Of a stretch of DNA of 51,847 nt, positions 64 through 37,138 are shown in pieces. The translations under genes were made by a program, and so were the position numbers. The notes under the pieces are model-generated. The model was not told where the DNA came from and did no database searches. It saw only the letters and a program-made list of their open reading frames with translations. The DNA is taken from NCBI GenBank assembly GCA_002269645.1, contig NIVC01004283.1:1-51847 (forward strand), read 5' to 3'. Every line of letters begins with the position of its first letter. Within the stretch, counting starts at the first letter, position 1. The DNA comes from Macrostomum lignano. Taxonomy: Eukaryota.

Positions 64-215
64 AGTAGAGAGATAACAAACTCTGCCGCAGGGAAAGCCA
101 CGGAAATTCCGTGGGCCCGGATCAGAAGGGCGCCTGTGTGTTTGCATAGCTCAACTCTGCCGCAGGCAAAGCCATGGGAATTCCGTAGACTCCTAGTGAG
201 AGTACATAGGCACCT
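64..215 (+). repeat. Left TIR of the Maverick, with two internal ~40-bp direct repeats
   Basis: aactctgccgcagg(g/c)aaagcca(c/t)gg(a/g)aattccgt occurs at ~79 and ~153; the inner half matches the inverted copy at 16764..16847. Confidence 0.88.
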
Positions 216-353: not shown

Positions 354-851
354 ATGGTCGATATTGGAGAAGGCTACAAACTTCAAGTACAAGAGTATGA
401 AGGAGTACAGTTTATTGCGATTCGGAAATTTTATCGACATGGCAGCACAGCAAGTTTAAAACCTGGCGTTCCCGGATTTAACCTCAACATCCGACAATGG
501 GAGAAGTTGAAAGAACTGAAGCGAACTCTCGTGAAGGCGGCCCTAGGCGGGCAACAGAGGATCATCAAACTCGGTTTTGATAAGTTTGTTGAGGTTAAGA
601 ACGGCATCATCTGGCTAAGACGGCTTCCAGAAGATTGTTGCGAAGAATTTTTGAAGCGAAACACTGTGGCTTTGGCACCAGCTCTGTGGCGAAAACTGTG
701 GGAGCAGGCTGCATGGATCGACGAGCAGCTGTCTGCCCCACGCCAAATTTCTGATGTGTATGAGCTGGAGTCGGGATCTTCGAGCGAGAGCAACGGTGAT
801 GATGATGACAACAGCAACAAGGACGACACACGTGCGGCTTGCGAAGACTGA
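354..851 (+). CDS. PC4/p15-like ssDNA-binding or coactivator protein (probably two PC4-fold units plus acidic tail; may continue by frameshift into 754..1098)
   Basis: VQVQEYEGVQFIAIRKFY..G..LKPGVPGFNLNIRQWEKL resembles the PC4 signature (V.I..F.G...vDIR.fy......PgkkGisL...QW..L). A second unit (KFVEV...IWLRR...VALAPALWRKL) is weaker. Confidence 0.75.
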   Translation: MVDIGEGYKLQVQEYEGVQFIAIRKFYRHGSTASLKPGVPGFNLNIRQWEKLKELKRTLVKAALGGQQRIIKLGFDKFVEVKNGIIWLRRLPEDCCEEFLKRNTVALAPALWRKLWEQAAWIDEQLSAPRQISDVYELESGSSSESNGDDDDNSNKDDTRAACED

Positions 852-1356
852 GGATGAGGGCGTCCAATCAAGCACTCTGCGCATCGACGATGAAGTGGTC
901 ACATCAACGCCTCTACCGGTGACAAGTGCTGCAGCTGGCTTTATCCCAAAGCAGGATTCGGATTTGCTGCAGGACCCAGTCTGGTATCGCTTCCGGGCTG
1001 AAGCAGCTGCGGTCGAGAACGTCAGGAAGCGCAAGCAGCCATATCCGCTGCGCAGGCAGAATGCCATGAGACTGCGCCTCAATGAGGATGAGGAGTGAAG
1101 AAGAAGAATAATAAGAAGTGCTTTGAAGAACTTTGGTGACTGGTGACGACTTAAATTGGCTCATTTAACAATTTCTATAATTAACATTGCTCATTTATCC
1201 AGAAAACTTAATTAAGTCTCTCCATTTAAGAAAATCATGCAACTTATTGTTTCTTATCGCTGAAATATATAAAAGCTTCTTTTCATAAAAAAATTGTTTT
1301 CCTTTGTTCTTGTGCTTAAGAAAAAATTAGACTGTTGACTTTTGTTTCTTGAGAAA

Positions 1357-1545: not shown

Positions 1546-2615
1546 ATGGAAAAGATCTACTACAACCCTGCTCAGCCTGCCAGTTTCTCGGGTGTCTCAA
1601 AGCTTCTGCACGAGCTCAAGAAAACACAGGATAATCGTGAATCTAAAAAGAGCATCGGACAATGGCTGACTGAGCAGCCTGTGTACACACTGCACAAGCA
1701 AGCTAGGAGACGCTATCCTATGGCACCAATCATTGTTAGGGCTATTGATGATCAGTGGGAACTTGACCTGGTTGAGATGATACCATTTGCAAAATACAAT
1801 AACGGCTACAAGTATATTCTCACATGTATAGATGTCCTCTCTAAATCTGGTTGGGCCAGGCCTCTAAAAAACAAATCAGCTGCGGAAGTCAAGTTCGCAT
1901 TCGAGAGTATCCTGAGGTGCTCAAAGCGCCAGCCACGCACAGTCCGCACGGATCAAGGAAAAGAGTTCATCAATACCAATTTTCGGGAGTTCTGTATAAG
2001 CAAGGGAATTTTGGCATTCCCCACTAATAGTGAGCAAAAAGCAGCCATCATAGAGAGGTGGAATAGAACTTTGAAAAACAAAATGTGGCGATATTTCACC
2101 CACAAGAGCACTTTGCATTGGGTTGATGTGTTGCCAAAGCTGGTCAAGTCGTACAACAACACTTACCACAGAAGCATCAAAATGGCACCGACTAGCGTAT
2201 GCAAAGAGAATGAGACTGAGGTCTGGATGAACCTTTACAATGGAAGAGCCATTGAGACTGTGAAGAAGCCAAAGAAGCCCAAATTCAGTGAAAAGCAGTC
2301 AGTGAGAATTTCCAATGCACCCAGGCTATTCTGCAAAGGATACAAGGCCAACTGGAGTGAGGAGGTGTACACTGTAGTATGTAGGGCACCGAAGCACTAT
2401 CCGTACATGTACAAGATTAGGGACATGAAGGGTGAGGAGATCCGGGGTCTCTTTCATGAGCATGAGCTGCAGGCGTGCCGGACTCACAGCGACTGTATGT
2501 GATTGAGAAGATTCTGAAAACGGAGAAGCGGAAGGGAAAAATTCGCTATCTGGTGAAGTGGGCCGGCTACGACTCGACAGGCTGGGTGGATGAAAAAGAC
2601 TTAAGAAAGGTTTAG
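1546..2615 (+). CDS. int: Maverick retroviral-like DDE integrase with C-terminal chromodomain (one -1 frameshift near 2475)
   Basis: WELDLVEM / TDQGKEF / AAIIERWNRT catalytic triad. The -1 frame 2481..2615 reads DSQRLYVIEKILKTEKRKGKIRYLVKWAGYDSTGWVDEKDLRKV*, a chromodomain. Confidence 0.93.
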
Positions 2616-2634: not shown

Positions 2635-3458
2635 ATGAGGTTTAACATTATAATGCGAACTATTTTGATTAACAGTGAGCATGCTGAAGGTACTCCTAGT
2701 GACTTTAATTTTTACCTGCCTTCACCTATTTACTTGGATCGAAATGTGGACTATGAGGCAGGTCTGGCTGAAATCCATCTGCCTGCTGCATGGTTCAATG
2801 TTGACGAGCCTTACTGCTTCACTGTCTCAGATGGAAGAGAGCATGAGGCCCTGGTTCTTCAACCCGGACGCTTTGCTAGAGTGGAGGAGCTGGTGGAGCG
2901 CCTGAATGAGCTGCTGGCCAACTCTGATTCGCTGTTCTTTGATGCGATGAGTGACAGGGAGTCTGAGATGGAGGCTGATGAGTCCGGCCTGATGGGGCGT
3001 AGTGGCAACAGGGAATTCGGTATGAAGTTCGAAATCCACAACTCACGAACTGTGGTGCACAACAACACTGCGAGAGCAGAGCTGTTTCTTCCATCTAGTA
3101 AAATTCTGCATTGGCTGGGATTTGGAAACCAGGCTGTGAAAATCCAGCCAGGGAGCGTGTCCGAGCACTGCATTGGCTGCCCGCGCACCAGCTTAATCAA
3201 TGTGCACTGCAGTATCGTTGAGTCAACTAATTGCAACTTGGGCTCCCTGTTGAGAACAGTTGGAATGAAAGCCGGCATTGAATGGGGCAACTATCAAACA
3301 AAAATATTTAAGAAAACAATATTCTTCCCGATTCAACGAATCAGTCTTCTTCACAGCATTCGAGTTCAGCTGCGTGACATCTATGGTTGCCCAGTGATTG
3401 CCCAGAACTCAGCCCTGTTCTGCTCACAGTTCAGATTCGGGAGAAACGCATTCAATGA
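2635..3458 (+). CDS. Minor capsid protein (penton); probable frameshift near 3400
   Basis: N-terminal PSDFNFYLPSPIYL...YEAGLAEIHLPAAWFNV and C-terminal IRVQLRDIYG are typical of Maverick pentons. The -1 frame ends LLTVQIREKRIQ* with TGA overlapping the next ATG (ATGA at 3455..3458). Confidence 0.8.
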
Positions 3459-3817
3459 ACTACCAGCAGCTGATCCAGCAATATTCGGGGGTGAGGACAG
3501 GACACGAAAAGCCTGCACTCTATGGCTGTGGGAGCTTTCCGGGGATCATGACATACCAGCCTCCTCCAGCGGCTACATCATCATTCTCAACGCATAGCAA
3601 TGTCAGGCGCAAAAGAAATACTGAAGCAAGTCCGAAACGATTGAAGAAGAAGAAGTACACCCGAAAGGCAACTGGTAGAGATCGCACTAATAAGAGGTGC
3701 AATGAAAGAAATCCGAGCAAGGCTAGTAGGAAAAAGCTTAAGAATAGGAAGACGAAAGCAAAGAAGAATAGGCAGGTGGAGGAAAGCGAAAGCGAAAAGT
3801 CAGCAAGAAAACTGTGA
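3455..3817 (+). CDS. Small very basic protein, putative virion core/DNA-condensing protein
   Basis: K/R-rich C-half; located between penton and hexon; contains LYGC^G matching the adenain (M/I/L)XGX^G consensus. Confidence 0.55.
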   Translation: MNYQQLIQQYSGVRTGHEKPALYGCGSFPGIMTYQPPPAATSSFSTHSNVRRKRNTEASPKRLKKKKYTRKATGRDRTNKRCNERNPSKASRKKLKNRKTKAKKNRQVEESESEKSARKL

Positions 3818-3845
3818 AACGCGTGCTCGACTCTCTGTCATAGAC

Positions 3846-6153
3846 ATGGCTTACGGATTCAATCCCAGACTTGATTTATTTAAGACGCCTGTTCTACAAA
3901 CCTGCATTGAAAAAGCTACTTATGTTGATATTCACCCAGTAAATTCCATTACTGCAAACTCCCCCATTGAATTTGACTGCCACCAATCTGCCGATGAATA
4001 CACTGATTTGCTTAATTCTTTTCTTTATATTCGCTGCCGCCTTGTGAGACTGTATGGGGGTTTGCTGAGGGAGGATGTTCGAGATGGAGATGGCATCATC
4101 ACCGAGCGCAAAGACAGTGATGTGCACCCAGAAAACTTTGTTCTGTCTACAGCCTTCTCAGATGTAATTGTGAGCATTAACCAGCGAGTGGTGTCTGGTG
4201 GAGACCAGCTCTATCCCTACCATGAGTACTTCAAAGCACTAATGAGCTCATCCGATGCCCAGCAACTAAAACTTTACCCTGCTGGCTTCCTGGAGCCGAA
4301 CTCGGCAGCTGAAGAGCACACGGAGAGCCACAGGGAATCCCGATGGATGGAGTTGTAGAGTATTATATCTCCCAGAAAAGTTATTTAAAATTGTTAACGT
4401 ACTACTTAAATAGTAGTAATTTGAGGAGCATGTATAAGGATATGCGCTGAACCATACATATATTCGAATTAACCAATAGAAAGAGAGAAATCTCGAGCAT
4501 GCTAATTTTAGAAATCACCCAATCACGTGCGACCAACAACTGTCAATTCAAACCCCACCTTCAAGTCATCATTTGGTTTGCACTCGGGTTGCACCCGGAT
4601 GAACCAATCAAAGTCTACCAGCTACGGTAACCAATCATGCGCTTTTACAGTAGACTAGTTGCGCAACTTTCTACCCTGTCATGCTTGACAGCCACCGAAT
4701 CGTGACCCTTTGACATTTGCGAAGACAGTGATGTACGACCTCGAGAGAGGTCTGAACGCCTATAAATACAAGTGGTCTGGAACGGACTCAGAGCCAACAA
4801 TTCCTCCGGAAGGAGAAGAGCTCCGAAGAGGAAGCCACTACAGGACTTCCTACAGAAGACTCGTCGAGTTCTTGCGGTAAGCCTTACTCATTTGCGCCTG
4901 TGTTTCGAGACGTCTCGTTGGAGTTTAGTTTGAGTCTGTTGAGACTCCTGAGTCTGTCTAGACTCTACTGGTTGCAGTCTCCAGAAGGACTGCCCCTGAT
5001 AGATCTTAGAAGACTATCAGTGGTTTCCGGAGCTATATCTAGAGTGCATAGAGGCACTGCTAGAAGGAGTAGGCTTATATTAAACCGCAGTTTGGCGCAG
5101 GGTACCCATTGTTGATTTGGAAGCTTCCCATTGGTCCGCACTACAGATACCGGCCGGAAACGACTTCAGTGGACGAAAAGGAACGCGGACCTGGTTACGA
5201 ACATAGACGTCTAACGAAGTTCGAGGGTCAAAGGAAGTCCGAGAACTACAGAACTACAGAAGAGCTCTCCGATACAGGACTCAAGGTAATACATACCTTC
5301 ATTTGATTACTGGGTTGCCTAGCTACAGAGCTAGAAGTGAGTGTTCTTTGATTACCAAAAGTCGGGTAATAAGGAACACATCAGAGTATGCGAGACCGCT
5401 CTTCAGCGATGTTTTCCAGTGCCCAGTGTTTCTGCTAAACAATCTGCACTTGCACATCAAACTGGTGCCAGCGATGGGGCATTTGCTATCAGAAGCCCGA
5501 ATGCAAACAACGCGGCATATCGCATGGAAATCTCTCACTGCATTTTGCATCTTCGCCGAGTCAAAGTGGTGCCCCACATCAGCCTGGCCCACGAGCAGGG
5601 GCTGACAAACCAAAATGCACTGTATCCCATCGAGCGAACTGAAATGCAGAACTTCATCCTACCCCAGGGCATTCAATCTAAAAACATTGAAGGATTCACT
5701 CATGGAAAATTGCCGAAGTTCATCATGCTGGCCTTCGTGAGCCACCGTGCATTCAACGGTCATCATCACGTTCCAGTTCCAGAGCTTCAACCTTAGCTGG
5801 TTGGCTCTAAAGAAAGGTGGGGAAACCGTGTGCCACGGTGCCTTCACACCTGAAAACAATTCCTTTGTAAGAGAATACTTGCACTACCTGAAAAGCTGTC
5901 AATCTGCAAGCCACACGAACTCGGTTCCGTGGATCCCTTACCAGCTCTTCTCCAACAACAACACGGTTTTTGCTTTCGATCTCACACCGAGGGAGCGGCT
6001 CTGTGGTACGGACAGGAGGAGGGCAACCTGCGGCTGGAGATTCGCTTCCGACAGGCTCTGGACGAAACGGTGTCCCTGATCGCTCTGTGCCTGTATGACT
6101 CGCTGATTGAGGTCACCAAGCACCGGGAGCTTTTGCTGGACTATTCCTCTTAA
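3846..6153 (+). pseudogene. Major capsid protein (double jelly-roll hexon-like), interrupted by a solo LTR and ~3 frameshifts
   Basis: LDLFKTPVLQTCIE...PIEF...YTDLLNSFLYIRCRL (3846..4353). After LTR removal it reads RWMEYARPLFSDVFQ...LHIKL, then LHLRRVKV..ISLAH...YPI.R.E...GKLPK...AFNG, VFAFDLTP, GNLRLEIRF...ALDETV..I....YD..IEV across ORFs 5303, 5341, 5747, 5929. Confidence 0.92.
4354..5383 (+). mobile_element. Solo LTR (1030 bp) inserted in the hexon gene
   Basis: Begins TG, ends CA, flanked by 4-bp TSD GAGT (4350..4353, 5384..5387). Removal restores the hexon frame. TATA-like cctataaata near 4760 and CCAAT motifs upstream. Confidence 0.85.
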
Positions 6154-6158
6154 CTGGC

Positions 6159-6666
6159 ATGGAAGCAATTCAACTACTCCATCTCGCCAGAAAATTTTTG
6201 TCTTGCCGAAAATTCCTCATCATTACTTTACATTCACGCTATAAAAATGTATTGTCTTTGAGTCTAAAAAGAAAATATCGATCAATTCCCTTTGAAAACA
6301 AGTTTGTGTTTATCCTACTACAGCACAATGGCTCATTTGGTCATTGGGTGGTGTGCTATGCTGGGCAAGGAAATTGCATTGAGCTGTTCAACTCCCTCGG
6401 CTGGGAACCTGAAATTTTAATCTGTGGTTTATAATTTGTTTCGAGAGATTAAACAACTGGCTTTTCTCCGAAGCAATAAAAACAGATTTCAATGTGCTAA
6501 CTCTAATAAATGCGGAGTGTTTTGCATCTATTTTGCTTATCAAAAGTTGCTGATCAATCGGTCATTTGAGGGTATTTTAAAGAGTTTGCACTCTAATGAA
6601 AAAAATCATTTGAATGATAGAATCTTACAGAGGTTTGAAGCCAACTTAAGAAAAAGATGTCCGTGA
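6159..6666 (+). CDS. Adenain-like cysteine maturation protease (frameshift near 6425)
   Basis: GHWVV (His), ELFNSLG (Asp/Asn position), FQCANSNKCGVFCIYF (oxyanion Gln and catalytic Cys). Confidence 0.88.
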
Positions 6667-6695: not shown

Positions 6696-7342
6696 ATGGG
6701 AGAAAAGCGAGTTTGCTACGATATCCGCCTCAGGCAGGGAAGCTGCATGATTGTCTGCGGGCCCACCAATGCAGGAAAAACAACCTTTGTCAAACACCTG
6801 ATCCAGTACAGAGACGTCATGTTTGATGTGAAGCCTGGCAGAGTTCTGTGGTACTATGGGATCTCACAGGCAGGCCATGCAGAACTGAGCAGCCTAGGTG
6901 TGCAGCTGCGCCAGGGATTTCCCACCAACATCGAGGCAGCACTTAGGCCCAATGACCTGGTTGTTTTCGATGACTTAATAGAGGAAACTTCAAATTCTGC
7001 TTCAATGCGAAATTTTTTCACAGGAATCGCACATCACTTGCCGTGCTTTTTGGTGATGCTGACTCAGAATATATTTTTCAAGGGAAAAGAGTCGCGAACA
7101 ATGAGCTTGAATGTAATGTATTTAGCTATCTTGAAAAACCCCGAGACCAGCTGCAGATTGCAGCACTGGGCAGGCAGTGCTTTACAGAGAAGCCCGGCTT
7201 TCTGCTGTCAGTGTTCAAGCACGTGACCGCGCAGAACAGGGGAGCCTACCTGTTCCTAGACTTTCACCCATCAACTCCCGATGAGCTGCGAGTGCGGGCC
7301 AGAATTCTGCCCAACCAGCGACCCCATCTTGTATTTGCTTAA
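6696..7342 (+). CDS. FtsK/A32-like DNA packaging ATPase (frameshift near 7140)
   Basis: Walker A GPTNAGKTT, Walker B LVVFDDL, HHLPCFLVMLTQN, then in the shifted frame PRDQLQIAALGRQ...AYLFLDFHPSTPDELRVR. Confidence 0.93.
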
Positions 7343-7384
7343 GAAAGTGAAGCTTGTTTTTTATCAGCTATTGTTTTCATCGCT

Positions 7385-7723
7385 ATGGAAGTGCTTGATT
7401 CACATGCAAGTCTTTTTGCGGTTCTTGCGTCACCTAAATATACCGTGCGCTTCAAGCGGCTGTTGATAAAAAAATGTCCAAAAGAAGTGCGTTATTTTCT
7501 TGTTGAGGCCTGTCATAATCTCTTACAAAACAATTTATCGTTTTCGATCGATGAAAAAGCTGTTCTTGCAAATTCAAAAGAGATAATTCGAAAAATTACT
7601 CAGCAGAGAAGAAAGAAAGACCTGTTAAAGGCTGGCTTCATCAAAATACTCCCGATTCTGCTTAAGCTGGTAAAGAAGAAGAAGCAAAATGAACAAATTT
7701 TCAGAAATGGTTCTGATTTCTAA
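7385..7723 (+). CDS. Conserved small Maverick virion-module ORF with C-terminal hydrophobic/amphipathic helix
   Basis: LVEACHNLLQNN...KKDLLKAGFIKILPILL resembles the conserved CEC..N.L.GN / KGGFL..LL ORF found next to Maverick ATPases (from memory). Confidence 0.6.
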   Translation: MEVLDSHASLFAVLASPKYTVRFKRLLIKKCPKEVRYFLVEACHNLLQNNLSFSIDEKAVLANSKEIIRKITQQRRKKDLLKAGFIKILPILLKLVKKKKQNEQIFRNGSDF

Positions 7724-8309
7724 AGCAGAGTATGAGATGTTGGTGCAGAATTTTAAGCCAAATGAGACTAGCACTGACGCTGACTTGAAGCAGGCTCAGA
7801 AGAAATGCGATGATATCTTGTATGCCGATGATTATCCAGAAGATGTGAAAACCGCCATGTATCAAAGTGCAATGCAAAGTTTGCTGGCCAAGCGCAAGCA
7901 CGCTGGAAAAGAAGGATCACGAAATACTGAAGCCAAGTTGATGAAAACAGAGACACCCCAGATGAACACCTGGGAAGAGAAGATCAGCAAGTCGGTGCCA
8001 CAGAAATTCAAAACCAGGGCTCGCAGTCTATGGACGATCCTGTCCACCAATCCAGAGTTGATTCGAGTTTGTGAAAACGGGGAGGTGGAAATCACAGGCA
8101 CTTCAATCCCTTCCTCAAACATACTGGACTTGATTCAGCACGCAGTGAGGGATTCGCCATGTGAGCGTGAACCAGTTGGGTGGAACGAGTTCATCGATTT
8201 GCTGCAGCAGAAAAAGCTTAATGTTCCGCTTTCTGCTGTTGGTAAATCAGTTAAAAGAAAATGGCAACCAGCAGAGGGGGTGAACTGGAGAAAGAACAGG
8301 AGAGTCTAG
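7689..8309 (+). CDS. Conserved Maverick hypothetical protein
   Basis: Intact 206 aa. MVLISKAEY..., DDIL..DDYPEDVKTAMYQ, GEVEI.G..IPSSNILDLI...V, PVGWNEFIDLL...NVP are motifs I recall from Maverick ORFs. Confidence 0.65.
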   Translation: MNKFSEMVLISKAEYEMLVQNFKPNETSTDADLKQAQKKCDDILYADDYPEDVKTAMYQSAMQSLLAKRKHAGKEGSRNTEAKLMKTETPQMNTWEEKISKSVPQKFKTRARSLWTILSTNPELIRVCENGEVEITGTSIPSSNILDLIQHAVRDSPCEREPVGWNEFIDLLQQKKLNVPLSAVGKSVKRKWQPAEGVNWRKNRRV

Positions 8310-8367
8310 TCAAGGGGTACGGGAGCAACACAGCCTGGCTGAAACTGCCGGAAGAAAATATATAAGA

Positions 8368-8830
8368 ATGGGAACTGACTCCGAAATTTCGAGGGAAAGC
8401 TGCATCATGAACTACATTGACTTCCAAGGATTCCCGTGCAACAGCAAAAAATTTGTTGTGAAGGAGTTGGCAGTTGTTCAAGTCAGAGTGGGAAGCTACC
8501 GCATTGCTCACCATGTGTACGCACCTCCGTATCCATGGGAGAGAGTCTCACCTGACATGCGAGTTTGCTACAGACAGCTATCAAAGAGTCTGCACCAGTT
8601 TAAGTGGAATGATGGAACCCGTCCGTACATGGAACTGGCGGAAGACATTCTGAGGCATTGCCAGTGGTCCGATCTGGACAAATGGGGAAAGGAAGTCTAT
8701 TTTCCTGACTGAGCTGCTTGGTAGACAGGTTTATAACCTAGAAGATTTGGGAGCACCCTCGACTGAAGATTCAGATACTGGCTGTGCAGTGAGAAATTCG
8801 TTGCTGCACTACAGTTGGCTTAAGCCAAAG
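8368..8830 (+). pseudogene. DEDD-type 3'-5' exonuclease-like protein, frameshifted near 8705; end approximate
   Basis: YIDFQGF...FVVKELAV (ExoI-like), PPYPW, W.DG..PY. The shifted frame continues ELLGRQVYNLEDLGAPS...CAVRNSLLHYSWL. Confidence 0.6.
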
Positions 8831-8921
8831 TTCTGCATCAACTTAAGAAGCGAGCAGTGTCCGTGGCACACGAGCAGTAAAGTTGGCAGAAGCAGATTTG
8901 GTGAAGAAGTTGACGATCGAA

Positions 8922-9512
8922 ATGAGCCCACCAGCTACAGCCCTAAGAGTGACCAATCTGGTTGGCGGAGTAGATCTGAGGCTGGATGGTGGCAGGGGCG
9001 CTCAGCTACCTCTACGGGAACTGGCTCTCAGCATGGCTCATGTGATCTACCGGCCCGTCTGGCCCCGGGTGCTCATCAAGCGGATGCGGAGTCCCAGAGT
9101 GACTCTGCTACTCTACCCTACTGGGCAACTGAGCATCTGCGGTGCCAAGACCCACGCAGACGCCAAAAGGGCTGCCCGTCGCTTCGTGGCTATGCTGCAT
9201 CGGAGAGTGCCAGCTCAACTGCTGCCTCCTCAAGCCATTTGTGTTCGGATTAAAACTATTACTGCTCATGGTAAATTTAACTTCTGCAATGCTTTGTCCC
9301 TCGCAAATCTTGCTGCCTCTGGCATACTGTCTTACGCTGAGTATGAGCCCGAGTCGTTCTCTGCTCTAATTTCTACATTACGTTATTGTAAATGCTTGTT
9401 ATTTCATACTGGTTCTTTTGTTCTTAGTGGAGCAAAATCTATGAGCATGTTGCGCTTCGACCTTTCTACGTTGCATAGTTTAATCAGCCAGTTTATCACC
9501 TATCAAAAATAA
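8922..9512 (+). CDS. TBP: Divergent TATA-binding protein (TBP) homolog, intact two-repeat saddle, 196 aa from ATG 8922
   Basis: Repeat 1: VTNLVGGVDL..LPLRELAL....IYRP.WPRVLIKRMRSPRVTLLLYPTGQLSICGAKT...AKRAARRF. Repeat 2: EYEPESFSALI......CLLFHTGSFVLSGAKS. Colinear with eukaryotic TBP (QNIV..VNL / [25 protein letters not shown] / YEPELFPGLI / LIFVSGKVVLTGAK). Confidence 0.9.
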   Translation: MSPPATALRVTNLVGGVDLRLDGGRGAQLPLRELALSMAHVIYRPVWPRVLIKRMRSPRVTLLLYPTGQLSICGAKTHADAKRAARRFVAMLHRRVPAQLLPPQAICVRIKTITAHGKFNFCNALSLANLAASGILSYAEYEPESFSALISTLRYCKCLLFHTGSFVLSGAKSMSMLRFDLSTLHSLISQFITYQK

Positions 9513-9633
9513 ACAAAAAGTGTGTTCCGTTTGTTCTTGATACGGATAAAGGCGAGTATATGTTTGAAGAAACCAAAGACTAAATATTCAGAATAAAATG
9601 TGTAGAGGCCGTGTGATAAAAAGCTATACTCAG

Positions 9634-12600
9634 TCACTTATTAAATTCGTGGTCTTCTTCCCGGCGCCGCTTTCGGGAGGCTGTAGCATTCACGTGCTGT
9701 TGCAGCTGCGACGACTCCGGATGAAGAAGTTGGAAATGGCCAAACGGGAGACTGTAGTTCGGTGCCAGCCAAGCGCGCTTGTCCTCCCAAATGCTTAAGG
9801 CACACTTTCGCTGCTCCAGCGTGAATAGCCTGTGTTGGATGCTTGCGATCCTGTGGATGATGACGGACATGCTACTCAGATCATTGAAGACTCTCAAGTA
9901 ATCACTATGCGCAATCTCCTTCTTGACGACACATCCTTGAATGCCTTTGGCTTTTTTCTTTTCAGCAGCTGCAGTGCTAGCGAGAAAGGAATACAGCTTT
10001 GGTCTCAAAAGCAACCATTCGAGATAGCGAGCTCCAGCTCCTTCGTCCTTGATGCAACCGAGGCGAGCTTTCAATTCATTTGAGAACAGCGGGTGCTCAG
10101 GTGAATAGTTGGAAGTGTCAAGGAGTTTCTTTGCTTTTAGCAGTGGAAGAACTTCCGACTGCACATCCATATTCTGAATGCAAAGAAAGAGCGAGTCGGT
10201 GTCTCCACCACAGAGCCGAACACGGGCACCCTCTTGCTCAAGCCAAGGCTTCAATTTGTCGTAGAATAACTCGTACATGATTAGCTTCGAATAGTCAAGA
10301 ACACACTGGCCAATAAAAATCGGACGATCAAGCTTGACCTTAGTCTTCTGGAATTCAATTATGCTCAGTGAGTCGGTAATTATGATAAAGTTCTTAATGG
10401 ATGGTTTTGAAGCCAGCACCTTTGCTTTTGCAGTGTTGGTGCAAATCCGAATGTCACGTCGCTTACGCACGTTTTCCATTGTTTTTCCGAAGAGCGCATT
10501 GTTTTTTAGTTTGTAGTAGTCTTTCTCGAAGCTGTTTGTCGCAGCAGCTCTTTTCACGCTGTTCATGTTAACATAGTCAGCAAATATCGGCTCCTGTTTG
10601 TACTCAATCATTCGATTAATTCGTTTGATTTTCATTCCATGCCTCAAGTAGAATGCCAAGATAGCCGAATGAAGCACATAACTCTGCTTGTCATGGCAGG
10701 TGAGCAGAAGTTTTTCTGCCGAACGATAGGCTGCTTTGTCTCCAGTAATCTGCCTCCAAAGCTGTTGCATGTAGGCAGGAAATTCTTTGAATTTTGGTGC
10801 TTCTTTTTCTGGTGCAAAAGGCAAATCTTCAGTGGTGGAATGTATCTCTGCTGGATATAGAAGATCGACATCGAGCAGATAAGCAATTGGATCTGAGATT
10901 TTGAGCCCTCGGATACGATCCTCGGTCCACAGCTGTAGCTCATCTTCGGAAAGCCAGCGAAATCCATTTGCAGGTAAGTTCATGGTAAGAGCTTGACCGT
11001 AAAGGTTGTTAGCATCTACTGCTAGAAGCTCGGTAGGAACAGCTTGATCAGCGCCCTCGTCGTGACAGTCATTATCATCATCATCATTGTCATTGCAGAT
11101 AGTCTGATTGTCAGCTGCTTCCAAATTTTTTCTAATATCTGGAGAGTTGGCTGACACTCTGTGTATGTTCACAAATGACATGCCACCGCGAATACCGCGC
11201 TCGAATGTTGCATACATTTGCGAATCCGTAATCAGCTCGATTCTGGATTTGAGAGACTTCAGTGCTGAAGCAAAAGATAATCCCGGGGTTGAAACGAAAT
11301 GCACCGGATCAAGGCCATCATCACGAAGGCTGAGCTTGCGAAAATTTTCAAAGACATCGGCGAGCTGCCGAATGTCAAGCTCAAGGTAGCATAGCATGTA
11401 CTCTTTCAACGTTTTAACTTGGAATTCGTGCCATGCTTTCTGTGCATGCCTGTAATCCTCATCACTGCAGTGGCTTTTAGTCAGAACGTTGTAGAATTGT
11501 TCTTTACTTGGCAGCTCGGTATCCTCAAGGACATTTGAATTGGTTAAGTAGTCGTACGGAAAAGTGCATTTTCTGAATAAAACTTCTGGAGACAACAGTG
11601 GAAACTTACTTTTTAGCAGGCTAGTGATGGTGCACTCTTCTTCTGGCAGGTTCTTGATCAGCTGAGCCAAGCTGGCGTTGAGAAATTGGTTAGAATCAAT
11701 GAATTGAATGGTAAAGAACAATGGCTTAGTCTTTCCTCCCCTCTCGTACTCATCGATTTTGAAGTCAACTTTAATTGAAACAAACTGCTCAGGATTCTGT
11801 GGAATAACCGAAATCCTCCATCCATCCATGAGATCCAAAGCCGTTGACATAATGAGATGAAGGTCATAGCCTTTTAGATTGTGGAAAACCACAGGAAGAA
11901 AGCGCCTTTTTAGACGAGCCTGCATGTTGCACTGAGCACAGGCTGCACCTCGGAATTCGCCACTGAGGTGATCATGATCCCAGTGCTTTCCGCTTTCACT
12001 ATCAAAGCCGCTTCCGCAGTAGTGACACGATATAGCGTCGCGGAAGCGTTGCTTTGCAGCCTCCGTTCTAATAGCCGTCTGATGACTGAACTCCGTGTTC
12101 CAGCCATAAACCTCTCGAGCTAGCTGTTCAAGGGACTGCAAGAAGTCAGAAACACACTTTTTCGGATTTTCACTCACAAATATGTTAACATAATTGTCGA
12201 CTCATATAGGTGATAACCCTGTGAGGCCTGCTCGGTGCACCACCAAGTAACCAGCAGCAACGGCAACATGCTCTGTCAGCTTTACAGTGCTCGAACCAGC
12301 TTCAGTCTGCTGCCCTGTGTGAGGTGCATTCAATGCCTCGAAGTCGGCGTACACAATGAATGGTGGGCTGATTGTCTTTTCCCACGCCGTAAACCGAAGT
12401 ACATTGTGATCTTCATCCGGAAGTTCTTCCTGTACAAAAATCCCACCAGGCTCACAGACATCTTCACAGTGCTCATCGAACGCCTTGCTAGTGTGAAATG
12501 ACAGCAGACAACGCTCACACCACTTTCGCTGGTACAGGTGGGCTTTACTGTTCAACAATCTGTTGATGTTCGAGACAGCACACCAATGACCACCAGCTGA

Positions 12601-13467
12601 GTTCTCGTTCGTGGATGGTGGAAGAAACATCAGCAGGACAACTGTTCGTCCTCTCATGGTAGCTGCGCTTGGCTGTCGGAGGACTTCAGCAGCTTCATTC
12701 TCCCAGGTGAAAACAGTGAAGCAAAGGGTTGGATTTAATTCCTCGACAGCAGACAGATCGTACAAATTGATCGGCAGACTCAGTCCCGTAATGTTAATCT
12801 CATCTAGCCATTCGGTGTACGAGGATTCTCGTTGAGCTGACTTCTTAATACGGCAGTGATCTTTGTAAAGAAAGGCAAGGCACGCGTAAACAAAGCAATT
12901 TTCACCGCTGCTAGGAGGAGAAATGACGGCCTTCTTTTGAAAAAGCGCAGTCGGCAAACTAAACCCAGCCGCATGCCCCGAATAGTAGGGAGTTCGAACA
13001 GCGAGGGCAGAGCAAAGGTCGAAGAAATTTATTTTGTCAATGGCCCATCTACTGCCATTAGCGTTGTACACGTCTACTATCTGCTCTAACTCTGCAAATT
13101 GCTGCCTCCACCAGTCATCAAATTCCTGCACATCAACCAGCATACAAAGATTTGTACTCATCCATTTGTTTTCAACATTGACTGCTTCTGCTGCCTGCAC
13201 CCGAATCATGCGCACGTTTAGCTTAATTTGTGCTCTTAGCGAACAGTTGTCAATGGAGTCAAGACGAACTTCGAGATACTGCAGAACCGCATGTTTGACC
13301 AGGTCTAGAAACTCGAATGGATCAATGTCAGCTGTTGGGGCGAAGCGATGAATCTGCAGTACATCATCGTGGGCACTGTTCACCAAGGAGATAACACATG
13401 AAGACCCTAAAAATAAAATCGAGAGATAAGATAGTGAAAATCGAGAAACATAAACTGAGAGTCTCAT
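9634..13467 (-). CDS. pPolB: Protein-primed DNA polymerase B with N-terminal extension, C2H2-like finger and endonuclease-VII-like insert; single in-frame TGA at 12202..12204
   Basis: ORFs 12202..13467 and 9634..12177 share a frame, linked by TGA plus 8 codons. Motifs IVYADFE, VVFHNLKGYDLH, FIDS, FPYDY, DANNLYG, KLKNNALFGK, GDTDS, LRPKLYS, KAKGI; CHYC...DHDHLSGEFRGAACAQCN is the EndoVII-like motif. Confidence 0.96.
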
Positions 13468-14986: not shown

Positions 14987-16224
14987 TTAAGAGTTACTCA
15001 AGCGAATACGGATCCCCCCTCCAAAGTCAATTGAGTACTCGCCCACAACGCTACTCGGTAGGACGAATTGAAGGCAAACTGACGGTGCAGCCATCGGTTC
15101 AGCGGCTTGGACTCCTGCTGATTGTTGAACCACCGGTGGGGTAGCATGAGGTTCGACTCCTGCTGATTGTTGAAACTCTGGTACCACCGGTGGGGTAGCA
15201 TGAGGTTCGACTCCTGCTGATTGTTGAACCACCGGTGGGGTAGCATGAGGTTCGACTCCTGCTGATTGTTGAACCACCGGTGGGGTAGCATGAGGTTCGA
15301 CTCCTGCTGATTGTGGAAACTCTGGTACCACCGGTGGGGTAGCATGAGGTTCGACTCCTGCTGATTGTTGAAAGTCTGGTACCACCGGTGGGTAGCATGA
15401 GGTTCGAAATCTCGTAGGAGATCAGACAGGCTGGCATCCGCCATCATTCCAGCCATATTTTTTCCAGCGACTGGAACAGCCCTGTGCGGTGGCTGCTGCT
15501 CGACCGTGGCTTTTTCGTTCGTATCCTCTGACTCCAACTCGTGCTCCTCAAAGAAAGCCGTGTCCAATTCTGGCGGAGCAACAAAATCAGCGGCAGCAGC
15601 ATCATCCTCATAGCGATTTACCGGTGTCTGAAGACTGAGAGCACCAGCCGCTGGAACGTCGACGCTGGCAGCTTGATGGTCGATGCCAGCAGGTCCAGGA
15701 GCAGCAGCTGAATAGTCGACGCTGGCAGCTTGATGGTCGATGCCAGCAGGTCCAGGAGCAGCAGCTGGATAGTCGACGCTGGCAGGTCCAGGAAGGCTGG
15801 CAACATCAGCTGGATGCTGATCTGCAGCAGCAAGTGCAGCGGAAATCAAATCAAAAGTACATGTAGTTGAAATTATTGCAGATTGATTTCGCACACCTTG
15901 AATCGTCTGGCTCAGGGTGCTGACCGGGGCTCGATGACGCTCGATCATGTTGAGTTGCTCCTGGCGGTGGGCGGCCTCCAGTACAGTAAAGCGGGCTCGT
16001 TCGATGCTATCAGGCGAGCTCCAATTAATGATGGTGCGATTTTTATGGGCCCGAACTTGGCGGCGCACATTGAACAGCTCAGTTGTGTGGCACTCGTGGC
16101 AAAGCAACCAGCGACTTATAATGCAGCTGTCTTTTTTGTTATGGAGCTTTAACCCACCGAGCTCACAGGAATTGCAGCTGATGCGCACCTCGTGCACGTA
16201 GGATGGACACCGAGATTTATTCAT
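14987..16224 (-). CDS. Maverick accessory ORF: Cys/His-rich N-terminus (CNSC, CHECH), acidic linker, tandem peptide repeats; frameshift near 15390
   Basis: ORF 14998..16224 reads sensibly to FEPHAT. The adjacent frame (14987..15385) continues with (SAGVEPHATPPVV[PEF]QQ)n and ends IRIRLSNS*. TATA-like ggtatataagag ~80 bp upstream. Confidence 0.6.
15105..15405 (-). repeat. Coding tandem repeat, 45/54-bp units, ~6 copies
   Basis: Repeated gttcgactcctgctgattgttgaa...ccaccggtggggtagcatgag. Confidence 0.9.
15650..15800 (-). repeat. Coding tandem repeat, ~57-bp unit (AAAPGPAGIDHQAASVDYS), ~2.5 copies
   Basis: Visible duplication of gtcgacgctggcagcttgatggtcgatgccagcaggtccaggagcagcagct. Confidence 0.85.
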
Positions 16225-16763: not shown

Positions 16764-16847
16764 AGGTGCCTATGTACTCTCATTAGGAGTCTACGGAATT
16801 CCCATGGCTTTGCCTGCGGCAGAGTTGAGCTATGCAAACACATAGGC
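16764..16847 (-). repeat. Right TIR remnant (inner 84 bp only)
   Basis: Reverse complement of 132..215 with 2 mismatches; the counterpart of 64..131 is absent. Confidence 0.9.
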
Positions 16848-23350: not shown

Positions 23351-26300
23351 CGGAAGGTGGTCTAGGGCTGCCTATGCAGGCAGTCCAAGAACCTAGCCAC
23401 CAGATCGCCATCGGCCAAGTCCTCCAGTTGGTGTAGGTCCGTCGCGTGTCGAGCCCTGGCCAGGGCCGGACATTCGAGGAAGTGGTCCTTGTCTTCTAAG
23501 AGGTCGCACCGGAGGCATCTGCTATCCTCCCTAGTGCCTATTCGGTGCTGATAGTACGCCGTAGAAGGATCGTGACCGGCACGCATTTGAGCTATGGAAA
23601 CTTGAAGCGCGCGAGGGCGAGCAGGCATCGAGGGGGTCTTGCTGTAGACCCGCTTCAGCCGGTCATTCAGGAGAGGCTTATAGTTGATGAAACGGCGTAT
23701 ACGGCTTCGGGCGGCCTCGATGTCGATCCCTAGAAGGTCCTGGGGGAGCAGACCGGCGTTCTTAGCCTCGGTGTCGGCTCTCTCGTTACCGGGAGTCCCA
23801 GAATGACCTGGGATCCACTGCAGGACCACGTCGGCGTGGCTCTCCACCTGCGTCAGCTTGCGCTTGAGCGACTCGAGCAGAGGGTTCAGGGAGTGCTGCC
23901 GACCCTTGAGCGCCGCAATGGCCGATTGGCTGTCGGTGAGGATCAGGGCAGAGTCCTGCTTAGTCTCAAGGATGTGGTCCAGGGCGAGGTGCAGAGCTGA
24001 GAGTTCAGCTTGGAGACTTGGAGAGAGTTCAGCTACACCAGCGCCCGGTAGCAGCTCCCTCAATCCAAACCACCTGGCCCGAAGTAGGGGCGACTGCCAC
24101 ACAGGCTGCCCTTCCATTCTCCGTTCCTTCGGATGCAGATCCGTCAGTGAAATAGTGGATCTTGCGGTCGCCCCATGATTTAATGGTGTCTTCCGTCGCT
24201 GACCGCCTGGTCTCTGGCGGATCGCTCCTGGAAATCGGCTGAGTCAGGTGTTCGCAAAGGGTGACCCGATCCTCGATTCTCGTAAGCCAGGGCTTGTTTC
24301 TGATCCAGTTCGATTCCCGGCGTGGGCAATGCAGAATCTGCTCAGATTCCAGCTTGGCTTGATCCCGGAGACCTTTGTTAGCTTTGAGCCTGCGCCGGCT
24401 TTGGTCTTCGCAAAGGCTGCGCCAAGGGTCGTGGGCTGGCCGCCGGAGGGCCTTCTCGACAGCCAGCAGGGCTCTTCTGTGTCCTTCAACGGAAATGGGA
24501 TCGGTTCCGAGTTCGAGGTAGACGGCCTCCTCCGGAGTGGATTTAGGGAGGCCGGCCACGATTCTGAGCGCTGCCCGTTGAGCCCGTTCGAGTTCGTTCA
24601 ACCGGCTTTTGGATAGCTAAGGTAGCCAGGCCGCAGCCGCGTGCCATATGACGGATTCGACCATAGCGGTGTACGTACGCATCAGTAGCTTGCGGTCCCA
24701 GCCCCAGCTCCTTTGTGCTAGCGCTCTCACGATGTTGGTGCGCTTGGCCATCTTTTCTTTGACCGTTTTGACTTGTTGAGCAAAGATGAGTCCACGGTCA
24801 ATCCAAATGCCGAGGTATTTGAGCGACTCCGTGAAGCGAAGTTGGGTGCCGGCTAGACGGAGATCAGGTGGCCGGTCAAAGTCGGCCCGGTTCCTAGAGA
24901 AGAGGCACGCCTGGGTTTTAGCTGGATTAACTGAGATGCGGAGGTCTCTGATCCAGGTTTTGATGAAGTCCAGGGCGCTCTGCAGCTTACTGGTGAGGTT
25001 CTGAAGGCTACTGTCGGTAGTCCATAGGCAGAGGTCGTCTGCGAATCCTCCAAGTTGAACTTCAGTTTCAGGGAAGCCAGTCCAATCATTGACGTAAAGG
25101 AGGAATAGAACCGGGGAGCACACCGCTCCCTGGGGAACTCCACTGGTGATGCGGCGCCACTTCCCGGTGGTGTTGCCGATTTTGGCACGGATTGCTCTAC
25201 CTTCCAGAAAATTGGCTAGCCAATGCGTCATACGATCGGGCATGTCTTCGTCCATCATCCGATTAATTAGCTTGTCGTGCCAAACTGTGTCGAAGGCTTT
25301 GGAGCAGTCGAGGGCGATAGCTGCGGTCTTGAGGGGAGGTTTGCGTTCCCACCCGTCTTGGATCGATTGGACCAGACGGGCGACCTGCTCCTCACAGCTG
25401 CGGCCTCTTTGGAAGCCCGCTTGCCAGTGTTTGAGGATGTTGAAGGTCTCGATCCAGTGGAAGAGGCGGTCTAGGACTATGCGTTCCATTATCTTGGCGC
25501 AGATCGATGTGAGACTGACAGGTCTATAGCTATCGCAGCTCTGCGGGTCTTTGCCGTCCTTCAGGAGGTGCACCACTATAGCTTGTTTCCAGATGCCAGG
25601 GCAGTGGCCAATCCTCCAGCTACGGTTGAAGAGTTTGAGCCAGGCTTCCGTCCAGCTTTCTGGCAGGTGCTTGAAGAAGGCTGCCTCTATCTTGTTCGGC
25701 CCTCCTTTCTTGTTGATGTCCAGGTGGTCGATAGCTCTCACAAGTTCACTCTTGGTGAAGGGGGCGTCATAGTCGCTGGCATGCGGGTGATAGGCACTCA
25801 GACGATTGGAGGTGAGTTTCTTGTAGCGGCGATCACCCGGTTGTTGGTCGGGTCTGCAGACCTTGGCAAAGTGTCTGCCAAACGCTTCGGCCTTTTGTTT
25901 GTCAGTCTTACATTCTTTGCCCTGAACCAAGAGGGTCTCGTTGGGGGTCGCCCCGTTATTACCCGTGTTCAAACATTTAATGGTCCTCCAGACAGCCTTA
26001 GGGTCGGAGGAGGAGGAGATTTTGTCGAGGTACTCTCTCCAGAACTGAGCTTTCTTCTCAGCGCACCGACTGGTCAGCTCTTGGGTCTTCATGTTCCAGT
26101 CTTCGACCGGGCCTCCCCGTCTACGGAGGTTGTTCCTCTCATCTCTCAGCAGGGAAAGTTCCTCGTCCCAGAAGGGGCGGTTACGAGGGGAGACTTTCTT
26201 CAGCGGGATGGATTCATTGGCCGCTTGCTTCATAGTCGTACAGAGCCGGGCAATTTGCTGTTTGATAGTGCCAGTGTTCAAGTCAGCAGAGTGCTCTTCA

Positions 26301-27638
26301 AGGTAGGAGTGATAGCGGTTCCAGTCGGCCTTTTTCCAGGCCCAGGAAAACCTGGGTTCTTTGGCCAGGGCCGGGCGGATACCATGAATCGTGATGAGAA
26401 TCGGCTTATGGTCAGAACCCAGCTCCGGCAGGACAGTCCAAGAGCACCGCCAGCTAGGGATCTGCTGGCGAAAGAAATGTCCGGGGCGCTCTCCTGTCCT
26501 GACCGGCGGTCGACACAGGTGAGTGCCGTGGTTGAGGAAGCGGTAGTCGTTATTCTCGACCCAGTCAACTAGGCAGCCGGCTTCAGTAACGTCTTCTGGT
26601 CCTTGGCCGGGTTTGCTGCCCCATTTCTGGTGGTGCAGGTTAAAGTCTCCCACAATGAGCTCCGCATTGTGCGGGGTGAGCCAGGAGACCACACTAGGGT
26701 TGATTCTTCTGTCCACCGTGTTGGAGCGCCGCGTTGGTGGTCGGTAGACATTGGTCAGAACTATAGTCTCGTGGGCGGTGATGTGCAAGGCGATACGATG
26801 CCCTACCGTGATGCCACCGCCCCAGTACCGAAGCTTTCGGAAGGAGATAGATTGGCGCACGAAAACCAGCAGCCCTCCTCCTTTGGACTCGACTCCATTG
26901 CGGGAAATTTGCCGGTCTTTTCTGATGGTGGAAAAACCCGGAATCCTGGGGTTGGGATGCTGTTTTTTCCAGCTTCGATTCCTGGACGGCGATAAGGTCA
27001 ATAGAGAGCCGATTGGCTATTTCTTCAAGTTCTCCCAACTTATTGCGGATACCATCCGCGTTCCATTGGAGGAGCCTAATACCAGGCTCCGACATGTCTT
27101 CGCTGGTGGTTTTGAAGTCCTGGCTGGGATCAGGTGAGCGCTGGTTCGGTTGCCCTTCCTCAGCCGGTCCGTTAAGGTGATGCAAGCAGGTTTCGCAGGT
27201 CCAGCGGCCCGTGGCGACGTCCCGTCGGATAGCCTCTATGGTCTGCTTGGTGCAAGCGTTATGGAACAGCCTCTCGCACACTTTGCACTCCGCAATAATG
27301 GCGGAGATGCGGACGGGCTTGTTGCAATCACCGCACTTTGGTTTTTCTCTTTGAATGAGCTGCATGAGTCTGGTACGGCGTTGAGTGGTCATGGGTTTGC
27401 CATCCACCTCCGGCGCGGCCGGGGGGGTGTGGTTCTGATTCTGTTGGGTGGAGCATGCCGTATCGTTCCGGTTGTCCTGGGAGCAAACAGTGCATTGCCA
27501 GGTCGTCCAGTCGGTGCGATCAGCCCTCCATCGCGTGAGACCCGATCAGGAGCTCTGCCGGTGAAAATGGCGCAGGCAATTAGAACAGACCGCGGGGTTA
27601 TTGCGAATCGAAGTGCCGCAGTTCGGGTGACCACAATC

Positions 27639-29585: not shown

Positions 29586-29719
29586 TTTTCTCTTTCTCTC
29601 TTTTTTCTTTTTTCTCTTTTTTATTAGCATTGACTTTATTGTATAGCCCCATCTTGTTTTACCAACCAGAAATTTAGCAAGTCCGGCCCAATTTCCGGTA
29701 AAACTGACACGACAACAAT

Positions 29720-37113: not shown

Positions 37114-37132
37114 TGGCGTCGCGAGCAGGATC
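37114..37132 (+). promoter_or_regulatory. Primer binding site, probably tRNA-Ser
   Basis: TGGCGTCGCGAGCAGGATC; its complement ...ATCCTGCT....CGCCA resembles tRNA-Ser 3' ends (from memory). The same core occurs at 32898 and 51345..51363. Confidence 0.7.
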
Positions 37133-37138
37133 GCATGC

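What the first reader, a model, noticed from the sequence alone, without database searches (positions are those of the whole stretch)
8922..9512. A Maverick/Polinton carrying its own divergent TATA-binding protein
Seen: an intact 196-aa ORF with both TBP repeats lies inside the TIRs, after the virion module and convergent with pPolB. It has no stop or frameshift while most neighbouring structural genes do, and it is intronless. Established: TBP is near-invariant in eukaryotes, TBP-like genes occur in some giant viruses, and it is not part of the standard Maverick gene set as I know it. Seen: of the four DNA-kinking Phe positions the first two appear as W (RPVWP) and Y (LLYPTG) while the last two are F (ESFS, LLFHTG); the repeat-1 Asn is kept (TNL) but the repeat-2 Asn is Thr (KTI). 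Inference: a captured, re-specialised factor that either drives element promoters with altered specificity or acts as a decoy for host TFIIA/TFIIB/TAFs.
Basis: partly seen in the sequence, partly recalled or inferred. Interest (0 to 1): 0.88.

Follow-up and report, generated by a model that had tools for sequence, protein, structure and literature searches.

The report
Flatworm Maverick's own TATA-binding protein
A virus-like jumping element in a flatworm genome carries its own conserved, altered TATA-binding protein, and six of its genes sit behind one shared TATA-like word, so the protein likely switches on the element's own capsid and integration genes.

Summary
Confirmed. 8922-9512 encodes a two-repeat TBP (PF00352 E 1e-24; model pLDDT 95, Z about 20 to TBPs) inside a Maverick/Polinton. 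It is not a decaying host copy. There are 151 matches in this genome, dN/dS across copies is 0.14-0.22, and a tree test rejects grouping with host TBP.

All four Maverick groups sampled in the genome carry their own TBP, and each has its own TATA variant before its genes: CTTAAGAA here (6 seen, 0.17 expected), TATAAGAA, TATAAGCA, TATAAATA. The TFIIB-contact stirrup is kept and the repeat-1 DNA face is remodelled. Best reading: an element-encoded promoter factor that recruits host Pol II to the element's genes (0.62). Binding, start sites and expression are not shown. Host TBP could also read these words, and I found no TBP-less control.

Two corrections. The first Phe position holds Pro48, not Trp47. 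'Intact among broken neighbours' is no evidence, because a twin of the same insertion has most neighbours unbroken.

This scan reported Maverick TBPs before on other DNA, and one published figure legend labels a TBP in a related virus.

The parts
8922..9512 (+). Element-encoded TBP, 196 aa, two repeats; N12, V14, L63, Y65, E142-P-E144, F146 and F161 kept or conservative; P48 at the first Phe position, R49, S71, C73, T112, T114, S147 and K157 changed
   Evidence: yeast site numbers recalled and anchored on host TBP
8842..8849 (+). CTTAAGAA, 80 nt before the TBP ATG (putative self-promoter)
   Evidence: kept in 5 of 5 family-A sister copies examined
1315..1322 (+). CTTAAGAA before the integrase (41 nt before a degenerate duplicate start here; 41 nt before the start in C84)
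2600..2607 (+). CTTAAGAA, 35 nt before the putative minor capsid gene; lies in the last integrase codons and is also present in family B
3307..3314 (+). TTTAAGAA variant, 148 nt before the small basic core-like ORF
3737..3744 (+). CTTAAGAA, 109 nt before the major capsid start; absent in C84 and C130
6645..6652 (+). CTTAAGAA, 51 nt before the packaging ATPase
7338..7345 (+). CTTAAGAA, 47 nt before ORF112
8359..8366 (+). Canonical TATATAAG before the DEDD-like gene (putative host-TBP promoter; overlaps a TATAAGAA)
   Evidence: fits TATAWAWR
9508..9513 (+). AATAAA overlapping the TBP stop; only 299, 6475 and 6505 precede it in the module, so nested 3'-coterminal transcripts are likely
   Evidence: inference
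8407..9253 (+). DEDD/Maelstrom-like ORF (283 aa in sisters, frameshifted here) whose tail overlaps TBP repeat 1 in the +2 frame
   Evidence: (Maelstrom 0.88, a lead only); the DEDD label is recalled
64..215 (.). Left TIR starting AGTAG; preceded by GGCCTG (58-63), which recurs after the right end in twin C211 (6-bp target duplication)
16764..16847 (.). Inner part of the right TIR; about 490 bp including the outer TIR are missing in this copy
354..851 (+). PC4-like coactivator gene (247 aa in sisters)
   Evidence: PF02229 E 2e-7
1546..2502 (+). Integrase (rve; chromodomain in sisters)
3846..6150 (+). Major capsid gene, interrupted by an insertion
   Evidence: low-confidence model of a sister ORF hits double-jelly-roll capsids
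4354..5383 (.). About 1.03-kb solo-LTR-like insertion (TG...CA ends, GAGT duplication) in the capsid gene
6159..6434 (+). Adenain-like protease, 5' piece (169 aa in sisters)
   Evidence: PF00770 E 0.003, below cut-off
6696..7226 (+). A32-like packaging ATPase, 5' piece (215 aa in sisters)
   Evidence: P-loop; Pox_A32 E 0.011, weak
7385..8309 (+). Two conserved ORFs of unknown function (112 aa; 230 aa in sisters)
9634..13467 (-). B-family DNA polymerase in two pieces (1277 aa in sisters), convergent with TBP
   Evidence: polB motifs DANNLYG, KLKNNALFGK, GDTDS; Endonuclease_7 domain
14998..16224 (-). Accessory ORF with TATATAAG 79 nt upstream (16303)

Best explanation
This Maverick family carries a conserved, remodelled TBP gene, and the protein likely binds the element's CTTAAGAA word and would recruit host TFIIB and RNA polymerase II to the integrase, capsid, ATPase and TBP genes. 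SHOWN: the fold, conservation under purifying selection, the residue changes, and the position and excess of the word. INFERRED: that the word is a promoter about 30 nt before the start site; that the element's TBP, rather than or better than host TBP, binds it; that TFIIB is recruited through the kept YEPE stirrup; and that genes behind canonical TATATAAG (DEDD-like gene, accessory gene, PC4 in some subfamilies) are read first by host TBP, after which the CTTAAGAA before the TBP gene gives positive feedback, as in an early/late viral cascade.
For: 1. Selection: median dN/dS 0.14 in repeat 1 (189 of 351 pairs with dS>0.1) and 0.22 in repeat 2 (278 of 351 pairs, 29 saturated) among 27 distinct natural CDSs.
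2. All four Maverick groups sampled in G000 carry a TBP; 8 of 10 group C/D capsid loci have one within 13 kb.
3. CTTAAGAA is the top de novo word of the module (6 seen, 0.17 expected, corrected E 0.002, none on the other strand). All six + strand copies in the 51.8-kb window lie before element genes, and the word is kept in subfamilies only 70-76% identical in DNA.
4. The other groups show other TATA variants in the same register, mostly 35-60 nt before an ATG.
5. The central Asn/Val/Leu of repeat 1, both repeat-2 Phe and basic residues are kept. The acidic stirrup is kept in all groups; the KSHV mimic lacks it (10.1101/2025.08.25.672222).
6. V122 to Ser and T124 to Cys open the pocket that, by pseudo-symmetry, faces TATA position 6, where the word has G (inference from the pocket listed in PMC13566119).
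7. The element also encodes PC4.
Against: 1. There are no binding, start-site or expression data.
2. CTTAAGAA fits the permissive rule for canonical TBP binding in PMC13566119, so host TBP could read it.
3. I found no TBP-less Maverick in this genome to serve as a control; two loci (C1390, C105) had no TBP match, but close relatives do.
4. The word reaches corrected E<0.01 in only 4 of 12 modules tested. Family B is not significant (E 2.5), and TATAAATA is not among the top six words of C181.
5. The residue-to-word match is not clean: L117 has G at position 6 but Leu at 122.
6. The first intercalating Phe is lost, and Giardia TBP, which lacks three of the four, prefers single-stranded DNA (PMC12209930).
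7. Some sites lie 12-28 nt from the first ATG, too close for a TATA unless a later Met is used.
8. The protease gene has no CTTAAGAA word.
Confidence: 0.62

Rival explanations
1. Host TBP reads the TATA-like words. The element's TBP is a modulator: a decoy that titrates TFIIB, NC2, Mot1 or TAF1, or a repressor or booster at these or host promoters.
For: The words fit the permissive TBP rule. The acidic TFIIB stirrup is the most invariant feature across all groups while the DNA face varies. F99 is lost and N159 and V161 are changed. Group D uses a canonical TATAAATA.
Against: The DNA-face substitutions are themselves fixed across families A and B at 38% identity (P48, R49, S71, C73, T112, K157), which a pure decoy does not need. 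Each group has drifted to its own word.
Confidence: 0.2
2. The protein binds DNA for replication or packaging (terminal repeats, or displaced single strands together with PC4), not for transcription.
For: It lies next to pPolB. Loss of intercalating Phe goes with single-stranded DNA binding in Giardia TBP.
Against: No CTTAAGAA occurs in the TIRs. The TFIIB stirrup is kept. The replication module is swapped between subfamilies at a crossover inside the TBP gene while repeat 1 stays with the capsid module.
Confidence: 0.08
3. The word is a TAAG-type late initiator read by a helper virus polymerase (baculovirus/nudivirus style, recalled), and the TBP gene does something else.
For: TTAAG is contained in the family-A word. 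A few sites lie only 12-28 nt before an ATG.
Against: Group D has TATAAATA with no TAAG. Most distances have a floor near 35 nt, as expected for a TATA. No helper is known to me for this host (not searched).
Confidence: 0.07
4. A recent, decaying retrocopy of host TBP that happens to sit in this element.
For: The ORF is intronless.
Against: 151 matches in the genome; dN/dS well below 1; 29% identity to host TBP; the AU test rejects grouping with it; the host TBP core is itself single-exon.
Confidence: 0.01

Closest known systems
Cellular TBP (PF00352; host copy on C70/C713/C1301) and TRF2/TBPL1 (host copy on C350/C3090/C3513)
   Same: Two-repeat saddle fold, central Asn/Val, repeat-2 Phe pair, acidic YEPE stirrup.
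   Different: 29% and 26% identity; first Phe replaced by Pro; fixed changes at 100, 122, 124, 159, 161, 191 and 203; no N-terminal extension; encoded by a mobile element in many copies.
Beta/gamma-herpesvirus TBP mimic (KSHV ORF24) and its TATTWAA late promoter (10.1101/2025.08.25.672222: abstract, introduction and section 15 read)
   Same: Works like it, by inference: a viral TBP fold paired with a TATA-variant word before virion genes.
   Different: ORF24 is a multi-domain protein that binds Pol II directly, needs five viral partners and lacks the TFIIB-contact acidic residues. This is a bare TBP core that keeps them.
TBP-like genes of giant viruses (ASFV B263R homolog, Mimiviridae, phycodnaviruses) and mirusviruses (search listing only)
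   Same: Virus-encoded TBP fold.
   Different: Those viruses usually carry their own RNA polymerase (recalled); this 17-kb element has none among its ORFs. Structural matches are weaker (8-21% identity) than to cellular TBP (23-26%).
Mavericks/Polintons/adintoviruses (PMC8097293 passages; PMC8502044 passages and section 10)
   Same: TIRs starting AG, 6-bp target duplication, integrase, pPolB, ATPase, protease, capsid.
   Different: TBP is not among the eight vertebrate core genes named in PMC8097293. PMC8502044 has a 'TBP' label in the legend of Fig. 5 (MELD viruses with adintovirus-like PolB); I could not see the figure or which element carries it, and the text read does not discuss it.

Membership tests
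TBP family (PF00352) | Two TBP repeats above the Pfam cut-off | tested here: met
   86.5 bits against cut-off 22.9, two stretches
TBP family (PF00352) | Saddle fold | tested here: met
   pLDDT 95.4; TM about 0.8; Z about 20, rmsd 2.0-2.1 over 177-179 residues; the alignment held canonical TBPs
Canonical TBP orthologs | Four intercalating Phe and both central Asn | tested here: not met
   P48, Y65, F146, F161; N12 kept, T112
Canonical TBP orthologs | Groups with host/eukaryotic TBP in a tree | tested here: not met
   AU p 0.0045 against grouping with host TBP (LG+G4, long branches)
Canonical TBP orthologs | Acidic TFIIB-binding stirrup | tested here: met
   E142 and E144 invariant in A1 and A2; E at 188 invariant in A4
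TBP family (PF00352) | Binds and bends a TATA-type sequence; recruits TFIIB | not testable with these tools
   needs EMSA, SELEX or pull-down
TRF2/TBPL1 | TRF2-type loss pattern and grouping with host TRF2 | tested here: not met
   different residues at 99/116/190; separate branches
Herpesvirus vTBP (ORF24 type) | Extra Pol II-binding domains, no acidic stirrup | tested here: not met
   196-aa core only, stirrup kept
Maverick/Polinton | Terminal inverted repeats and 6-bp target duplication | tested here: met
   152-155 bp TIRs in C211, C1113, C1297; GGCCTG in C211; right end truncated in the window
Maverick/Polinton | Retroviral-type integrase | tested here: met
   rve E 5e-13; rve plus chromo in a sister
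Maverick/Polinton | Protein-primed B-family polymerase | tested here: inconclusive
   polB motifs present, but no Pfam polymerase hit and no PDB hit; protein priming not shown
Maverick/Polinton | Double-jelly-roll major capsid | tested here: met
   pLDDT 49 model of a sister ORF; all listed hits are DJR capsids, best E 6e-8; low TM
Maverick/Polinton | A32-like ATPase and adenain-like protease | tested here: inconclusive
   hits below curated cut-offs (E 0.011 and 0.003)
Maverick/Polinton | Minor capsid protein | not tested
   assigned by position and recall only

The most novel reading that the evidence does not exclude
TBP is an overlooked standing gene of a broad invertebrate Maverick lineage, and each sub-lineage has evolved an orthogonal TBP-promoter pair (CTTAAGAA, TATAAGAA, TATAAGCA, TATAAATA, TATAAGAG). 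Co-resident elements in one genome would then each switch on their own virion genes through a private TATA code using host Pol II: a natural series of altered-specificity TBPs and a route to inducing Maverick late genes.
Probability: 0.3. Interest if true: 0.85.

Novelty: new variant of a known kind. Interest (0 to 1): 0.68.

Why it matters
How Mavericks express their capsid genes, and whether they form particles, is open (PMC8097293 abstract: particles not observed). A dedicated TBP with a matching promoter word gives a concrete, testable late-gene switch in a laboratory flatworm with RNAi. Four TBP and word pairs in one genome allow a direct 4-by-4 specificity test of how a near-invariant factor can be re-tuned. 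It also warns that 'TBP-like' genes annotated in bivalve genomes may be element genes; I did not check their context.

Tried and rejected
EXPRESSION. No RNA holder listed. Contigs of four runs only guessed to be RNA cover the TBP bins and bridge the insertion site; this does not show transcription, strand, start sites or level, so it is not used as evidence.

SEARCHES THAT FOUND NOTHING. Viral-contig scans with the TBP alignment, the L117 TBP and a capsid protein found nothing. The profile search of 1.84 billion representatives gave only seven clusters above 160 bits before canonical TBPs, so it missed the wider Maverick-type set that later found.

TBP-LESS CONTROL. I sought one among ten other capsid loci. 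The first 20-kb stretches showed TBP in 4 of 10; a genome search raised this to 8 of 10. No clean control remains.

PHYLOGENY. A single origin of 21 Maverick-type TBPs is neither shown nor rejected (AU p 0.416). The tree had five mis-trimmed rows and was replaced.

OTHER IDEAS DROPPED. The rule 'Ser/Thr at 122 goes with G at position 6' holds in groups A, B and C, and D has Ile with A, but L117 breaks it. Selection on the overlapping +2 frame was rejected: omega is 1.9-4.2 there against 0.11-0.17 in the TBP frame. I ran no complex prediction: the host TFIIB gene is split by introns and TBP-TFIIB is a textbook pair.

ROWS LEFT OUT. Of 49 distinct CDSs, 6 were dropped before dN/dS (3 cut by a locus edge, 3 fused by frameshift), 15 were family B, and L079 (family A) was mis-binned and left out of the 27. 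I inspected 9 of 18 metagenome loci.

LITERATURE. A search for the Pro191 role found nothing relevant, so that point is recalled only.

Full report
1. OBSERVATION. The ORF at 8922-9512 is real: 196 aa, ATG to TAA, with AATAAA across the stop. It hits Pfam TBP at E 1.1e-24 with both repeats and PDB TBPs at E 3.5e-15. AlphaFold, given a 60-row alignment that included canonical TBPs, gave pLDDT 95.4. Foldseek TM was about 0.8 and VIA Z about 20 to eukaryotic and archaeal TBPs, with weaker matches to giant-virus TBPs. Source labels name the host as Macrostomum lignano.

2. THE ELEMENT. It starts at 64 (AGTAG...). TIRs are 152-155 bp in three sister copies. C211 is the same insertion, and there a 6-bp duplication GGCCTG flanks it; the window copy lacks about 490 bp at the right end. 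The + strand order is PC4, integrase, putative minor capsid, core-like ORF, major capsid (interrupted here by a 1.03-kb solo-LTR-like insertion), protease, ATPase, two unknown ORFs, DEDD-like ORF and TBP. The polymerase is convergent. The minor capsid, core-like and DEDD labels are recalled, not from a call.

3. TWO CORRECTIONS. C211 differs from the window by 27 gap openings and 29 mismatches in 15.4 kb, and has most neighbouring ORFs unbroken. The window's frameshifts therefore look largely like assembly indels, and the TBP's intactness in this copy (chance about 0.36) proves nothing. Ungapped alignments and the model's strand register put P48 at the first intercalating Phe and W47 on the preceding Arg. 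Whether W47 substitutes structurally could not be tested.

4. A STANDING GENE UNDER SELECTION. The genome search gave 151 matches. About 90 of the 150 listed are full-length and stop-free at 76-100% identity (hand count). The assembly is redundant (host TBP appears three times), so these are not independent insertions. Among 27 distinct family-A CDSs, median dN/dS is 0.14 in repeat 1 (189 of 351 pairs with dS>0.1, maximum 0.27) and 0.22 in repeat 2 (278 pairs, maximum 0.41, 29 saturated) (Nei-Gojobori, pairs not independent). Family B is 38% identical in TBP and 43% in capsid, and keeps the gene at the same place. Repeat 1 is 95-100% identical in DNA to several subfamilies whose repeat 2 is only 37-75% identical, and whose polymerase arms also differ, so modules have been swapped at a crossover inside the gene.

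5. FOUR LINEAGES, FOUR TBPs. A distant capsid query revealed further groups. Of ten loci fetched, 4 showed a TBP in the first 20 kb and 4 more had one 11-13 kb from the capsid gene; C1390 and C105 had none found, though close relatives do. I did not map TIRs for groups C and D. In metagenomes, 4 of the 9 loci inspected (of 18) have a TBP beside Maverick-type genes. A profile search found 127 relatives, some named from Crassostrea, Mercenaria, Pinctada, Mytilus and Saccostrea (context unchecked). All Maverick-type TBPs have Thr/Ser for N159 and V161 (120 of 120 and 119 of 120 listed hits; partly circular because the profile carried this feature). L103 keeps the Asn. Families A and B form a clade (100/99), and grouping with host TBP is rejected (AU p 0.0045). 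A single origin of all Maverick-type TBPs is neither shown nor rejected (p 0.416). Long branches limit both trees.

6. THE PROMOTER WORD. CTTAAGAA is the top over-represented 7-8-mer of the window module (6 seen, 0.17 expected, corrected E 0.002, none on the other strand). In the whole window it occurs six times on +, each before an element gene, and once on - far outside. Five of the six sites persist in subfamilies 70-76% identical. Group C shows TATAAGCA (E 0.001 in C297), group D TATAAATA, family B TATAAGAA and L117 TATAAGAG. Only 4 of 12 modules reach E<0.01, and B is not significant. Most distances to the ATG are 35-60 nt, as expected for a TATA, but a few are 12-28 nt. A canonical TATATAAG precedes the DEDD-like gene and the accessory gene. 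I had seen earlier scan notes proposing such a word in other genomes before running these counts; those notes are unchecked and are not counted as support.

7. MECHANISM. Yeast numbering is recalled and anchored on the host TBP. It agrees with the five A. thaliana residues named in PMC13566119 at a recalled offset of 42. Kept: N69, V71, T112, L114, R105, the acidic YEPE stirrup, F190, L205, F207, V213. Changed and fixed in families A and B: F99 to P, A100 to R, F116 to Y, V122 to S/T, T124 to C, N159 to T, V161 to T/S, P191 to S/N, V203 to K. By pseudo-symmetry with the position-3 pocket listed in that paper, 122 and 124 face position 6, where the word has G. Loss of P191 would relax position 1 (recalled), where the word has C. 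L117 breaks the 122 rule. The KSHV mimic lacks the acidic TFIIB residues (that preprint numbers them E184 and E188, my recalled numbering gives E186 and E188), whereas these proteins keep them. The most likely reading is therefore an element promoter factor that enters the ordinary TFIIB-Pol II route (0.62). Against it: the words fit the permissive rule for canonical TBP, there is no TBP-less control, and nothing is shown about binding, start sites or expression. Rivals are modulator or decoy (0.2), replication or single-strand role (0.08), helper-polymerase initiator (0.07) and retrocopy (0.01).

8. WHAT IS KNOWN. Viral TBPs are known from giant viruses and, as mimics with TATT words, from herpesviruses. 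[quoted passage not shown] I read passages and section 10, not the figure. The one held supplement had no hit, and preprint supplements are closed, so an annotation there may exist. PMC8097293 (passages) lists eight vertebrate core genes without TBP and has no TATA mention. PMC12209930 and PMC13566119 were read as passages (plus section 10 of the latter); the other papers were seen as listings only. Ten searches found no paper describing TBP as a conserved gene of animal Mavericks or pairing it with a promoter word; the library lacks most subscription journals. This scan has at least eight earlier notes of Maverick TBPs in other genomes, and none on this genome or sequence.

9. VERDICT. The feature is real, selected and lineage-wide. 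It is a true TBP-family protein, not a canonical ortholog, and it probably works like a viral late-promoter factor. New variant of a known kind; interest 0.68. What this genome adds is four co-resident lineages with four TBPs and four words, which makes the specificity question directly testable.

Noticed in passing
window 8924-9253 and sister copies: The upstream DEDD-like ORF runs on in the +2 frame over TBP repeat 1 for 90-131 codons in all 43 distinct family A and B CDSs examined. Chance under my null is 0.4-2% per family (too low for A, whose 5' half is GC-rich). The amino acids of that tail are not conserved.
   Followed up: partly
G000:C297:261415-262818 (L141): A group-C element TBP is fused in one frame to a deoxynucleoside kinase domain (PF01712 E 2e-23).
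   Followed up: partly
L129:1645, L145, L150, L156, L141 (group C TBPs): Their homology begins right after a pyrimidine tract plus AG, so these element TBP genes appear to be spliced.
   Followed up: no
window about 9240-9270: Crossover hot spot inside the TBP gene: GC drops from 0.60 to 0.39, and at least six repeat-2 types are joined to near-identical repeat 1.
   Followed up: partly
window 4354-5383: Solo-LTR-like insertion in the capsid gene, shared with twin C211.
   Followed up: partly
window about 1356-1545: A degenerate duplicate of the integrase 5' end precedes the integrase ORF.
   Followed up: no
L014, L082, L101, P0008: Frameshifts in some copies fuse the DEDD-like ORF to the TBP frame; one such fusion is annotated as a host protein.
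   Followed up: no
P0312, P0317, P0349, P0352, P0372, P0384, P0388: Bivalve proteins, some annotated as TBP or TBP-like, fall in the Maverick-type set and may be element genes.
   Followed up: partly
L127 (G000:C3758), ORF at 3309-3887: A dUTPase-like ORF (by eye) behind a TATAAGTA word in a group-C element.
   Followed up: no
window 23362-27392, 28441-29652, 32917-40963, 47481-51339: LINE-like and several Ty3/gypsy-like retroelements, one pair in inverted orientation with 236-275 bp LTRs (labels by eye).
   Followed up: no
window 41305-42364 and 44244-45566: Tandem duplicated fibrinogen-domain-like host gene (by eye).
   Followed up: no
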